NCBI GenBank assembly: GCA_964016885.1 | Contig: OZ024744.1 | Span: 36,084,001 to 36,148,000 of the forward strand | Direction: 5' to 3' | DNA: 64,000 bases | Origin: Eledone cirrhosa | Taxonomy: Eukaryota | Shown here: positions 4,340 to 8,377 of the stretch, piece after piece | Layout: each line of letters opens with the position of its first letter | Numbering within the stretch: position 1 is the stretch's first letter | Translations under genes and position numbers: made by a program | Notes under the pieces: generated by a model | Databases searched by the model: none | Told to the model about the DNA's origin: nothing | What the model saw: only the letters and a program-made list of their open reading frames with translations

Positions 4340-5139
4340 AAGTATGTATACGTACATACATATATGTATACATATATGTATACAGACGTACAGTAGTATG
4401 TATATATATATACATACATCCACACACATATATATATGTACGTATGGATTCACTGAACATTTATTATAATGCTCGGTGTGTTTGTAAACAAACATTCCGA
4501 ATTAAGCCGTACAGTGTCTAGCAACCACACCGAGCATTATAATAAATGTTCGGTGAATCCATACGTACAGATATATATGTGTGCATGTATGTTATATATA
4601 TACATACTACTGTACGTCTGTATACATATATGTATCTACGTCTACATACTTATATTTAAGTAACAGCCGTACTAAGAGTGGGAAATGAAATTTCGTTTCA
4701 TTTTTTCTGTTTATCGTTTTCGGTACCCCGGCCGATTAACTCCTAGATATGCAAATTAGGCTGCTCAGCCGTTCATATGCATAAGGAAAGTATATACTTT
4801 CAGACGTTAAACCATCCGGCAGGAAGGTATACGTTGCTGACGATAGCTAATAAGCTTGAAACTAGTACAGCATTCCTTTGTCAGTGTTGAACAAACGAGC
4901 AACGATGGTTGCTGGACACTACGGCTTAATACGGGATGTTTGTTTACAAACACACTGAGCATTATAATAAATGTTCGGTGAATCCATACGTACATATATA
5001 TATATGTGTGCATGTATGTACATATATATACATACTACTGTGCGTCTGTATACATATATGTATGTACGTATACATACTTATATTTAAGTAACAGCCGTAC
5101 TAAGAGTGAGAAATGAAATTCGTTTCATTTTTTCTGTTT
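4340..5139. mobile_element. Family A retrozyme-like insert: inverted pair (antisense 4340-4526, sense 4527-5139, about 1.4 units)
   Basis: aagtaacagccg recurs at 4658 and 5086 (428-bp period). Contains an HHR, has (TA)n on both sides and no ORF. Confidence 0.8.
4831..4873 (+). ncRNA. Type I hammerhead ribozyme (family A)
   Basis: acgttg-CTGACGA-t-agct-aata-agct-t-GAA-ACTAGT-A-cagcat. Palindromic stem III; predicted cleavage after 4867. Confidence 0.8.
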
Positions 5140-5209
5140 CTATATATATATATATATATATATATATATATAATATAAGATCAAAAGATGGTTAAAAGAG
5201 TTCCATGTA

Positions 5210-5276
5210 TTTTATTATGCGCATTTCAAAAACAAATATCATCATGGGATGATACTTGCGTTCTCATCAGATAAAA
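5210..5276 (-). ncRNA. Type I hammerhead ribozyme in PLE terminal repeat
   Basis: ttttat-CTGATGA-long stem II-GAA-ATGCGCAT-A-ataaaa. Same family at 26981-27047 (-) and 27157-27225 (+). Confidence 0.8.
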
Positions 5277-6433
5277 TAGGGAGACATGATATGAAGTTTA
5301 AAAAACACTTTCGAGCAGTGAAGTGTTAAATCTACATATGAAAAATAAAATAAGATGGATATATGAGATTGGAAAAAAAAATAAGGATGGGGGAAGGAAA
5401 AGGTACGGAAGAGGAAGGAAGAAAAAAAGGATGACGGGGGAGGAGTATAAGAAGGAAGGTTGAGAGAGGAGGAGAAATGTGTGAGAGAGAGAGAGAGAGA
5501 GAGAGAGAGAGAGAGAGAGAGAGAGAGAGAGAGAGAGAGAGAGAGAGAGAGAGAGAGAGAGAGAGAGAGAGAGAGAGAGAGAGAGAGGGAGACGGAGAGA
5601 GAGCCTTTAATACTGAGAAACACTGTCTCACAGAGAGAAATGAAATAAACCGTTTAAGATAATACATAATTTGAAGAAAATTTTGAAATTAAAAGTTAAT
5701 GAGGTTTATGAATGGTGATGTTTATGATTAAAGAAAAAGGAATTAAGAATATTGAAGGGTTTAATAAGATGTGCGAATAGGAATTTATTAATATGTATTA
5801 TTAAAATAAAAATATTAAGGAGATAAGGTGAATGAAGAAGAAATTAAATGAATTATGAACTTAGAGGATTTAGTTAGGGTCTAATTTTGTGTCTATGTAT
5901 TGTAATATGAAAAAGTAAATAATAGGTTTAATACGAAGAAAATAAAGTAAATAATAGGTTTAATACGAAGAAAATAAAGTAAATAATAGGTTTAATACGA
6001 AGAAAATAAAGTAAATAAGAGGTTTAATACGAAGAAAATAAAGAAGAAAATTTAAGGAAGAAAAAGTATATAACGTCAAAAAAATATGTTTACAAAATTT
6101 AGTAATGGTAATATTAGTATATATTAAAAATATAGTTTGTATGGCGAAGAATATAAGGAAAATGCTATAGTGAGTAATAATATGAATTAAGAAGTAATTG
6201 AGAAGCAAAAATTACAGATTAAAGATTAGAAATTAAAAAGGAAAAAAGGAAAAAAGGAAAAAAGGAAAAAAGGAAAAAAGGATAAAAAAGAAGAAAAATA
6301 GGGGACCGCTAACGACATAGAATGGGTAAATTGTATAATATAATATACTGAAATAAGGTAGAAAGATGGGTATATATGTAAAAGATATAAACGCGTTTGA
6401 AAAAAGATTTTAAACTAATTAGGTAGTGAGATA

Positions 6434-7550
6434 TTAGCTGTATACTTTATGGAAAGTTCTATGGGATTTATGCAAGCAGAGCGAAAATAAATCCGTACGT
6501 CTATTTATTATAGAATTAAAATTAGAGATAATGGTAAATTTCTCGGCTAGGCAGAGATTACATGTTCTGGATAAGAAAGAATTCCGGTAAGGAGAGGCGT
6601 TGCAAAACTTCCTCCAAGAAATGTTGTAGTTAATATTTTTGTCTTTTAAGGACCATATGAGTTCTGAGGGCGCCGTGTTAGTTCTTTTAAGTTGGTATTT
6701 AAAAGAGGAATTGTGATTATAAAATCGTGCTTTAAAGGAAGTGGAAGTGAAACCAAAATAGGTAAAAGAATTAGTACCAGTTATAACCTTACATTCATAC
6801 ACTAAATTGTTATCAAGACATTGGTTATTAAGAGGACATTTAGTTCTAACAGGGCAATTACAATTACGATTAGAGAAATTACCAGAGTTATTAACAAGTG
6901 ACCTAGTATTATTGAAAGAAGGAATTGGATTTGAGAAGTTATTTACGATAGGTGCTAAAGTTTCCTGATTTAGATTGGTGTTTTGAACATTCGACAAAGT
7001 TACGTTTGACGTCGTATTTAAATTTACTGAATCTAGCCTAGAGTTAACATTGACGTCGGGTTTACTATTACTATTATTATGACGCTCAGTGTTGGATAGA
7101 TATAATTTATTATTTAATATTTTATTATTTTGTTTAAAGATAATGTTAGAGATATTGGAAGTGGTGGAATAAGAGAATTGGATTGTATGTTTGTTAAAGA
7201 TCTCATATAGATATGCGAGGAAGGGAAGCATTTATCTAAGGCCCTAAAAAATAGTTTAGGAATATTACTAGTAATAGATAGAGAAAAAGGAGCGTTGTAC
7301 AAATCATATTTTTGTATCTAAGTTATTGGAATGTTCATGACTAACTATTTTACTATAAGTCCTTCGATGATTAGTTTCTTTACTGTATTTAATTTTGTCA
7401 GGATAACCGGCTTTGGGAAGCGAATTATTATAATAATTGGCATTAGCGTCGAAGATAACTTTATTAGAGGATAGATATGAGATTCTTTTTTCAACATTAG
7501 TGACTATAGCATTTTTAACGTTAATAGGGTGGTTAGATTTAAAATTAACA
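6434..7550 (-). pseudogene. PLE RT-thumb/GIY-YIG endonuclease remnant (stops and frameshift)
   Basis: Motifs as listed for the element; split between ORFs 7114-7302 and 6434-7231. Confidence 0.85.
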
Positions 7551-7749
7551 TAATTTAGATTCTCATTGCCTTTATGGTAAGGGTAATATAGGCCGGTGTC
7601 AAGATTAAGGGATATATCCAGGAAGTTATATATATATATATATATATATATATATATATATATATATATATATATATATATATATATATATATATATATA
7701 TATATATATATATATATATATATATATATATATAAATATATATATATAC

Positions 7750-8377
7750 AATTAAGTTAGAAGTGTACATCCACATATGTATACTGAAATACTAGTATGT
7801 ATATAAATACACACACGTATACATATGTAGATGTACCGAGTTTTTCACTGGACACTTTACTGTGAGTGTTCAGCTAGTCTGTATGTAAACACACAGGCAA
7901 ACCGGTTTTTAGAGTCATACTGGTTTTCGAGGAAACACCTTTCCTCTATTCTCCAGAGGGCCAGACAGGAATATTGGACTAGTTTCGATGTTGTTACATC
8001 TCATCAGCAATAAAAACCCATCCTCCGGCCCCTCTAAAGAATCGTAAAAGCACATATCGTTATATGCCTTTTCTATGAAAATTAGTAGTGGGCAGACTAA
8101 TTTGCATAGAGCGTGAGTACGTACCGGTTCAGCGGAAGCGATAAAAACAAATAACGAAACGTGTGTTTACATACAGACTAGCTGAACACTCACAGTAAAG
8201 TGTCCAGTGAAAAACTCGGTACATCTACATATGTATACGTGTGTGTATTTATATACATACTAGTATTTCAGTATACATATGTGGATGTACACTTCTAACT
8301 TAATTGGTTAAGCGTCAGTCATACAAACGTGAGTTACAAACGAAACGAAATTTAATTTTGTTTCGTTATTTGTTTGT
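7750..8377. mobile_element. Family B retrozyme-like insert: inverted pair, unit about 460 nt
   Basis: 7750-7893 is the reverse complement of 8161-8305. The right arm runs on into gtttcgttatttgttt, the reverse complement of 8145-8160, i.e. it wraps around the unit. Flanked by (TA)n. Confidence 0.75.
7972..8012 (-). ncRNA. Canonical minimal type I hammerhead ribozyme (family B)
   Basis: tattg-CTGATGA-gatgt-aaca-acatc-GAA-ACTAGT-C-caata. Perfect stems I and II, GUC triplet. Confidence 0.9.

What the first reader, a model, noticed from the sequence alone, without database searches (positions are those of the whole stretch)
4749..8107. Paired octamer motifs at a fixed distance upstream of the ribozyme in two diverged families
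Seen: in family A, ATGCAAAT (4749-4756) lies ~80 nt upstream of the HHR core. It is followed ~20 nt later by a second inverted exact or near octamer (both exact at ~34973-35007), then the palindrome gaaagtatatactttc. Family B is otherwise poorly alignable but keeps ATGCAAATtag.ctgc (8100-8107, minus strand) ~90 nt upstream of its HHR, plus aattttcata. Known: the octamer is the snRNA distal element bound by POU factors, and HHR-bearing newt satellite 2 is transcribed from an snRNA-type promoter. Inference: the units carry their own internal snRNA-like promoter, which is regenerated upstream of the HHR whenever more than one unit is inserted.
Basis: partly seen in the sequence, partly recalled or inferred. 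Interest (0 to 1): 0.72.

Follow-up and report, generated by a model that had tools for sequence, protein, structure and literature searches.

The report
Ribozyme repeats with hybrid snRNA promoter
A large group of small, protein-free jumping repeats with a predicted self-cutting RNA carry, just ahead of it, a fixed block of DNA words also found in front of the host's own small nuclear RNA genes, which likely lets them switch on their own transcription, while the second 'octamer' is likely only the other arm of an RNA hairpin.

Summary
The coordinates are right. A (427-nt unit) and B (465-nt unit) are homologous hammerhead retrozymes with Penelope-type ends, 57% alike over the whole unit. With A and B alone the octamer block is not significant (P=0.21). 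It becomes meaningful in two ways. First, at least six family groups (A-F) keep a gap-free block: octamer at 0, YCAG at +16, TATA-like box at +41 to +44, while TATA-to-ribozyme distance varies 38-59 nt. Second, the host's U6, U6atac and RNase MRP genes carry the same 12-mer at -76/-78, and its U1, U2 and U5 genes carry YCAG with a TATA-like box 25-27 nt later, as the elements do. The block is therefore a hybrid of the two host snRNA promoter types, not a distal enhancer. The second, inverted octamer is missing from C, E and F and fits a hairpin arm. Against: no RNA data, spacing 4-5 nt shorter than in U6, only a weak match to the Pol II core, no 3' box, no extra conservation among dead copies. 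Promoter about 65% (Pol II-leaning). Known kind (newt satellite 2 precedent), new variant. This scan noted the same cassette before on other DNA of this genome.

The parts
4713..5139 (+). Family A, one full 427-nt unit (tail end to tail end)
   Evidence: period from the direct partial copy 4522-4712
4522..4712 (+). Family A, 5'-truncated direct copy (unit positions 235-427)
4333..4527 (-). Family A, inverted partial arm (unit positions 194-374, no tail), ending in (TA)n
4748..4759 (+). Octamer 12-mer, same word as at -76/-78 of host U6, U6atac and RNase MRP genes
4765..4768 (+). YCAG box at octamer +16, like the box at -55 to -58 of host U1, U2, U5 (candidate PSE core)
4775..4782 (-). Inverted near-octamer; predicted 3' arm of a hairpin with the first octamer
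4786..4801 (+). Palindrome holding the TATA-like box at 4791 (octamer +42, YCAG +26)
4820..4823 (+). Predicted transcription start (octamer +72, pyrimidine-A step), 47 nt before the cleavage site; inferred from host spacing only
4821..4877 (+). Type I hammerhead motif, core 4837-4867, palindromic tetraloop in place of stem III; predicted cut after 4867
   Evidence: not found by Rfam
5087..5139 (+). 53-nt tail between the two preferred 3' ends (unit 374 and 427), with A-rich/T-rich hairpin and T6 run at 5128-5133
7749..8160 (-). Family B arm carrying promoter block and hammerhead, ending at the inner 3' end in (TA)n
8097..8108 (-). Family B octamer 12-mer
8088..8091 (-). Family B box at octamer +16 (CCAC, the weakest match to the host Pol II box)
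8075..8082 (-). Family B inverted near-octamer, 3' arm of a strong predicted hairpin (z -5.0)
8059..8066 (-). Family B TATA-like box at octamer +41
7977..8007 (-). Family B type I hammerhead core
8161..8376 (+). Family B opposite arm, 5'-truncated, with tail, ending in (TA)n
9133..9642 (-). Further family A insertion, octamer 9461-9468, ribozyme core damaged
30498..31171 (.). Family A inverted pair, octamer 30810-30817 (minus)
34633..37501 (.). Cluster of family A copies with octamers at 34999-35006 (-), 36233-36240 (-), 36563-36570 (+), 37164-37171 (+) and the exact inverted site 34973-34980

Best explanation
A and B belong to a clade of non-coding hammerhead repeats with Penelope-type ends, and each unit carries a fixed octamer-YCAG-TATA block that likely works as an internal snRNA-type promoter, more likely read by RNA polymerase II than III. 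Shown: the block, its fixed inner spacing in six family groups, and its two-part likeness to host snRNA upstream regions. Inferred: a POU factor would bind the octamer, SNAPc the YCAG box, and transcription would start near octamer +72, just inside the ribozyme's outer stem. With no 3' box, the polymerase would run into the next unit; two ribozyme cuts would release a unit-length RNA or circle with the promoter at its 3' end; a Penelope-like RT/endonuclease would prime at the tail in (TA)n and, by copying across the cleavage junction, put the promoter back in front of a ribozyme. The inverted second octamer is likely the partner strand that hides the fixed octamer in a hairpin of this highly folded RNA.
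For: Host Pol III-type genes: 5 of 5 intact, independent promoters (U6 L077, L078, L079 array type; U6atac L119; MRP L117) have the octamer or a 1-mismatch form at -76 to -78 followed by TAG/GAG, as in the elements. Host Pol II-type genes: 14 of 14 distinct U1/U2/U5 upstream regions have YCA(G/A)T at -55 to -58 and a TATA-like box 25-27 nt later; elements have YCAG at +16 and the box 25-28 nt later. Positions not asked for by the search pattern are conserved without gaps in 22 clusters: +9 A 20/22, +13 T 18/22, +17 C 21/22, +18 A 20/22, +24 T 20/22; in 7 group representatives mean pairwise identity is 0.53 at +8..+24 against 0.25-0.33 upstream and a slid null of 0.27, max 0.41 in 5000. A matrix built from host Pol II promoters ranks +16 first or second of 115 positions in A, A2, A-satellite, C, D, E, F1 (shuffle p 0.0005-0.011). 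Blind test: in 590 kb taken at round coordinates and queried with ribozyme plus 3' part only, 16 of 18 copies reaching the ribozyme have the exact octamer, 1 has one mismatch, 1 is truncated; 0 of 22 hammerheads of other families have it. Families C and D have tandemly repeated the octamer+YCAG module (33-nt and about 41-nt periods). Hairpin partners sit in different registers per family (pair sums 33, 32, 28, 30, 37), so the sequence and not the pairing is what stays fixed. Family D has a T5+ run about 120 nt after the predicted start, mid-unit, which a Pol III product could hardly pass. Two preferred 3' ends 53 nt (A) and about 70 nt (B) apart in (TA)n match the two RT start sites and tail of Penelope-like elements (PMC11167929, passages).
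Against: No RNA evidence of any kind. No host gene examined has the hybrid: Pol II-type genes lack the octamer at the matching place (3-5 mismatches in 14 of 14 tested) and Pol III-type genes lack YCAG. Element scores on the Pol II matrix (-6 to +11) lie well below host leave-one-out scores (12-25), though above the Pol III genes (-8 to -26); family B scores -6.1, rank 7. A TATA box normally selects Pol III in vertebrates (PMC1761439 Introduction), though here host U1/U2/U5 also show a TATA-like box. The other upstream word of host Pol II genes (about -90) and the 3' box are absent (best 7.5 against 11-18 in 11 of 12 host genes). Among 52 retained D copies the octamer is no better kept than neighbours (rank 47 of 127; exact in 16 of 52). 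Families C-F were first found by requiring the octamer, so its own conservation across them is partly circular. The octamer is paired in predicted hairpins in most families. No autonomous partner element was identified.
Confidence: 0.43

Rival explanations
1. The block is a U6-type (type 3) Pol III promoter: octamer-like word plus TATA, start near +72, end at the T run by the tail; rare read-through supplies the promoter-containing template.
For: The 12-mer occurs only in host Pol III-type genes. In the window's A copy the first T4+ run after the predicted start is T6 at +307, 12 nt before the tail end; in B a T5 at +353; C and E also end in T runs. TATA -30 gives the same start site.
Against: Octamer to TATA is 41-44 nt against 46-48 in all 5 host genes, about half a helical turn less. 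Insertions run past the T run, and a terminated RNA would lack the promoter. The T runs are 3' arms of tail hairpins; in D the run is mid-unit; the B copy examined has a T4 at +273.
Confidence: 0.22
2. The block is kept at the RNA level, as a hairpin or sequence bound by the Penelope protein or a host RNA-binding protein, and the units are transcribed by read-in from neighbouring promoters.
For: The octamer is predicted paired (probability 0.74-1.0 in A and B, 0-4 of 100 shuffles as high; z -5.0 for B); whole units fold far better than shuffles (z -6.7 and -10.3). The block starts 36-40 nt after the RT priming end.
Against: Pairing registers and partner sequences differ between families while positions stay fixed; pairing is weak in E, F2 and one D copy (43, 13, 34 of 100 shuffles); it does not explain the match to both host promoter types, which are not transcribed and do not form the hairpin, nor the constant TATA distance.
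Confidence: 0.25
3. The block is a relic inherited from a common ancestor, under no current constraint; likeness to host promoters is partly chance in AT-rich DNA.
For: A versus B alone is not significant (P=0.21); no excess conservation among D copies; TATA-like words are common in this genome.
Against: Families only about 40-50% alike by the same measure keep it without indels while flanks fall to chance identity; blind sample; pattern hits 3340 and 357 against 0 and 0 for the reversed controls.
Confidence: 0.1

Closest known systems
Newt satellite 2 (Coats, Zhang and Epstein 1994; Cremisi 1992; neither paper held; known here only from citing passages in PMC2220036 and PMC6765202)
   Same: Tandem hammerhead units with an internal snRNA-type promoter read by Pol II; weak helix III with palindromic tetraloop (PMC7229834 passage).
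   Different: There it was shown by experiment; here it is inferred. That the newt promoter has an octamer and PSE is recalled, not seen. Here the octamer abuts the core and the block is shared by at least six diverged, mostly dispersed families of an invertebrate-type genome.
Metazoan non-LTR retrozymes (PMC7229834, passages and Discussion; bioRxiv 10.64898/2026.07.22.740005, part 1 of 5 plus term search)
   Same: Non-coding units of some hundred bases with type I hammerheads, in tandem and dispersed, proposed non-autonomous Penelope derivatives.
   Different: Neither text describes an internal promoter (0 occurrences of 'promoter' in the preprint, 2 in the paper, both T7). RNA and circles are shown there, not here.
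Penelope-like element pseudo-LTRs (PMC11167929 and PMC6765202, passages)
   Same: Partial-tandem and inverted copies, tail between two RT start sites, AT-rich targets, hammerhead, promoter in the upstream repeat.
   Different: No ORF in the unit; the promoter looks snRNA-like; 22 other hammerheads in the blind sample, several probably from coding elements, lack the block.
Schistosome Sm-alpha hammerhead SINE-like repeats (PMC6765202 passage)
   Same: Promoter ends up at the 3' end of the cleaved RNA, so tandem copies are needed to propagate.
   Different: Pol III promoter of SINE type there; upstream snRNA-type block here.
Insect bipartite snRNA promoters, PSEA with PSEB or TATA (PMC1761439, abstract and Introduction)
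   Same: Shared 5' half and polymerase-specific 3' half would parallel octamer plus YCAG.
   Different: [quoted passage not shown]

Membership tests
Non-LTR retrozyme | Short non-coding unit with a type I hammerhead in each unit | tested here: met
   (no ORF of the unit apart from simple-repeat frames); motif only, Rfam silent
Non-LTR retrozyme | Tandem copies with at least two intact ribozymes | tested here: met
   L003, L014, L074, L357 and the 66-kb array L137-L143; the copy at 4713-5139 has only one
Non-LTR retrozyme | Self-cleavage and linear or circular monomer RNA | not testable with these tools
   no RNA holder listed
Penelope-mobilised element | Two 3' ends with a tail, inverted or partial-tandem 5'-truncated copies, AT-rich target | tested here: met
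   of 91 A segments 32 end at unit 365-379 and 47 at 415-427/1-9; of 41 B segments 21 and 18 at the two ends
Penelope-mobilised element | Autonomous partner sharing the terminal signal | tested here: inconclusive
   RT/GIY-YIG fragments lie in the window but none is flanked by A or B sequence; no genome-wide search made
Host type 3 Pol III promoter (U6, U6atac, MRP) | Octamer 12-mer upstream | tested here: met
Host type 3 Pol III promoter (U6, U6atac, MRP) | TATA 46-48 nt after the octamer start | tested here: not met
   41-44 nt in elements
Host type 3 Pol III promoter (U6, U6atac, MRP) | T-run terminator defining the 3' end | tested here: inconclusive
   T run at the tail in A, B, C, E; mid-unit in D; insertions pass it
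Host Pol II snRNA promoter (U1, U2, U5) | YCAGT box with TATA-like box 25-27 nt later | tested here: inconclusive
   spacing met, YCAG met in A, C, D, E, weak in B and F; scores below host range
Host Pol II snRNA promoter (U1, U2, U5) | 3' box after the RNA end | tested here: not met
   (A, A2, B units)
Vertebrate-style distal sequence element | Octamer far upstream (about -200, recalled) of a separate PSE | tested here: not met
   octamer lies 72 nt before the predicted start; no host gene examined has a shared distal octamer
Any snRNA-type promoter | SNAPc-dependent initiation at a defined site | not testable with these tools
   needs CAGE, ChIP or reporter

The most novel reading that the evidence does not exclude
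A whole retrozyme clade built a composite promoter that no host gene examined has, the activator word of Pol III-type genes fused to the Pol II snRNA core, with the 3' box dropped so that the ribozyme sets both RNA ends. It has kept this block through six diverged families and repeated it in two, and its copies make up roughly a fifth to a quarter of the exact octamer sites in a blind sample, so they could be a major sink or source of POU and SNAPc binding in this genome.
Probability: 0.3. Interest if true: 0.75.

Novelty: new variant of a known kind. Interest (0 to 1): 0.5.

Why it matters
Animal retrozymes are reported to be abundantly transcribed, but how is described only for single cases (newt, schistosome). 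A conserved internal snRNA-type promoter with a predicted start site makes this directly testable with one reporter series. The comparison also yields the host's snRNA and U6-type promoter grammar, useful for small-RNA expression tools, and a natural hybrid for asking what selects Pol II or Pol III.

Tried and rejected
Rfam scan of the window: no hit at gathering score. Sequencing runs: no RNA holder listed; contigs of four coded runs were laid: no variant row fell in 4746-4757 or in the octamer, while the inverted site varied at 4777 and 4779 in about 30-34% of depth in X1, but family B showed almost no variation anywhere, so this is weak. 5' truncation points show no pile-up at the cleavage site (5 of 77 uncensored A segments at 151-167), in a sample selected for promoter-bearing copies: inconclusive. 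Conservation among 45 dispersed and 119 satellite A copies is too high everywhere to rank the octamer. Twelve further dispersed U6 hits, L090, L091, six array copies with a SINE-like insertion and 7 of 8 U6atac hits lack the upstream word; I treated them as pseudogenes or disrupted copies and left them out of the 5 of 5 count. Two octamer-plus-hammerhead loci (L171, L219, group G) lack YCAG and TATA and score at chance; they may be chance pairings or a counter-example. Pfam found nothing in four RT/endonuclease frames; the Atlas search supported one. In family D, 2 of 87 loci were duplicates and 33 of 85 were dropped for lacking homology around the octamer. Papers: searches listed nothing describing this promoter or these families; subscription papers and supplements were not seen.
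Full report
Observation. Thirteen exact octamers occur in the window against 4.63 expected; nine belong to family A or B copies and four are unrelated. A has a 427-nt unit (4713-5139), preceded by a truncated direct copy and an inverted arm, all in (TA)n. B has a 465-nt unit (tandem in L074) and lies here as an inverted pair 7749-8376. 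The 2.6 kb between them is unrelated DNA, including a fragment similar to an RT/GIY-YIG frame of the window. A and B align along the whole unit (57% of columns).

What the elements are. Each unit has a type I hammerhead core with a palindromic tetraloop in place of helix III, the form described for newt-type ribozymes (PMC7229834 passage); Rfam does not score it and cleavage is untested. Copies end at two preferred 3' positions, unit 374 and 427 in A, with scattered 5' ends, which fits the two internal RT start sites and tail of Penelope-like elements and their AT-rich targets (PMC11167929 passages). Genome searches scored 40 of 1579 and 40 of 1874 candidates, all close copies. A 66-kb array of a 420-nt A subfamily ends about 850 bases left of the window. 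This is the known class of animal non-LTR retrozymes, proposed to be non-autonomous Penelope derivatives.

More families. Patterns asking only for T+octamer and a hammerhead core gave 3340 and 357 matches, with 0 and 0 for reversed controls (100 rows of each listed, 30 loci each plus 6 fetched). They fall into 22 clusters and about seven groups, mostly 37-60% alike between groups. Anchored on the octamer without gaps, unrequested positions are conserved: +9 A, +10 G, +13 T, +17 C, +18 A, +19 G, +24 T, and a TATA-like box at +41 to +44, whereas box-to-ribozyme distance runs from 38 to 59 nt. Identity at +8..+24 among seven representatives is 0.53 against a slid null of 0.27 (max 0.41). Group G (2 loci) lacks these features. 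To escape circularity I took 59 ten-kb stretches at round coordinates and queried with ribozyme plus 3' part only: 16 of 18 copies (11 stretches; 7 copies are one array) carry the exact octamer, one has a mismatch, one is truncated; none of 22 hammerheads of other families has it; 14 of 57 exact octamers in the sample precede one of these ribozymes. Family D copies picked by ribozyme alone (87 loci) give a majority sequence with the octamer 93 nt upstream and the TATA-like box at +43, but among 52 retained copies the octamer is not better conserved than its neighbours (rank 47 of 127).

Host promoters. U6 (three independent types), U6atac and RNase MRP have the octamer or a one-mismatch form at -76 to -78, followed by TAG or GAG, and TATA 46-48 nt on; loci left out as pseudogene-like are listed under Tried and rejected. 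Fourteen distinct U1, U2 and U5 upstream regions have YCA(G/A)T at -55 to -58, a TATA-like box 25-27 nt later and a 3' box, and no octamer at the matching place (the anchoring on YCA was by pattern near -57). The elements join the two: the Pol III-type 12-mer, then YCAG at +16 and the box 25-28 nt later. A matrix from the host Pol II set picks +16 as first or second of 115 positions in seven of ten A-F representatives, third, fourth and seventh in E2, F2 and B; scores are -6 to +11, between host Pol II (12-25 leave-one-out) and host Pol III genes (-8 to -26). Either geometry predicts a start near octamer +72, where a pyrimidine-A step lies within +71 to +73 in most representatives (weak, since this stretch is also part of ribozyme stem I). 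Families C and D have repeated the octamer+YCAG module in tandem.

The second octamer. It has 0-1 mismatches in A and B and 2-4 elsewhere, at shifting positions; in each family the first octamer is predicted to pair with a downstream arm, in different registers. Whole units fold far beyond shuffles (z -6.7, -10.3). The simplest reading is a fixed word whose partner strand evolves to cover it in a structured RNA. A second POU site in A and B is not excluded.

Mechanism. Shown: block, spacing, likeness to host promoters, element anatomy. Inferred: factor binding, start site, polymerase, cleavage, circles, Penelope copying. I favour Pol II because of the core spacing, the mid-unit T run of family D, the need for an RNA that passes the tail T run to carry the promoter, and the newt precedent; Pol III remains open because the 12-mer is found only in Pol III-type genes and A, B, C and E end in T runs. 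No 3' box is present, which suits read-through with ribozyme-made ends. An insertion needs only 392 nt (0.92 unit) from the tail to hold promoter and ribozyme in order; making a promoter-containing RNA needs two ribozymes in tandem, a circle, or read-in, as described for schistosome repeats. Odds: promoter 0.65 (Pol II 0.43, Pol III 0.22), RNA-level signal 0.25, relic 0.10.

Novelty. Retrozyme class and the idea of an snRNA promoter in a hammerhead repeat are known; the primary newt papers were not held. Seven literature searches listed no description of this block or these families. Earlier AI notes of this scan report the same cassette on other DNA of this genome; they are not independent support. 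I found the U6 likeness before reading them; they gave me three paper leads. Verdict: real, a new variant of a known kind, function untested; interest 0.5.

Noticed in passing
L137-L143 (G000:C28:36017458-36083153), just left of the window: 66-kb tandem array of a 420-nt family A subfamily with an 8-nt deletion between TATA-like box and ribozyme; octamer-to-TATA spacing unchanged.
   Followed up: partly
L245, L246 upstream of position 1501 (minus strand): Family C copies with up to about 9 tandem 33-nt repeats of the octamer+YCAG module; most C copies have 2-3, most D copies 2.
   Followed up: partly
L118:1400-1500: Nuclear RNase P RNA gene has the U1/U2-type YCAGT box and no octamer, suggesting a Pol II-type promoter, unlike RNase MRP.
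   Followed up: no
L090 minus strand, around 1400-1607; window 56267-56369 (-) and 27262-27352 (+): U6 copy joined directly to 103 nt of a (TA)n-inserted repeat 99% identical to window 56267-56369: a likely template-switch chimera made by the same kind of machinery.
   Followed up: partly
L083, L084, L086-L089: Six of 18 listed variant-type U6 loci carry a SINE-like insertion just upstream of the TATA box, displacing the octamer-like word.
   Followed up: no
L226, L200, L201, L245, L169: A very common SINE-like element (95 blast pieces in 590 kb) sits at the same AT-rich spot inside several family E and C units.
   Followed up: no
window 6434-7756 (-), 18855-20093 (-), 23016-24680 (+), 57787-59129 (+): Broken RT/GIY-YIG frames of Penelope type; one supported by the Atlas search, one by likeness to it, the other two by eye; none hit Pfam.
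   Followed up: partly
window 5264-5270 (-), 11684-11708 (-), 17591-17628 (-), 18370-18407 (-), 20829-20866 (+), 22204-22241 (+), 25387-25411 (-), 26451 (-), 27396-27419 (+), 31807-31829 (+): Other hammerhead-like motifs without the octamer block, from several further families.
   Followed up: partly
L074 and L107 (G000:C2:180971707-180973707): A tandem family B insertion lies about 1.1 kb upstream of the first gene of a U1 array; probably chance.
   Followed up: no
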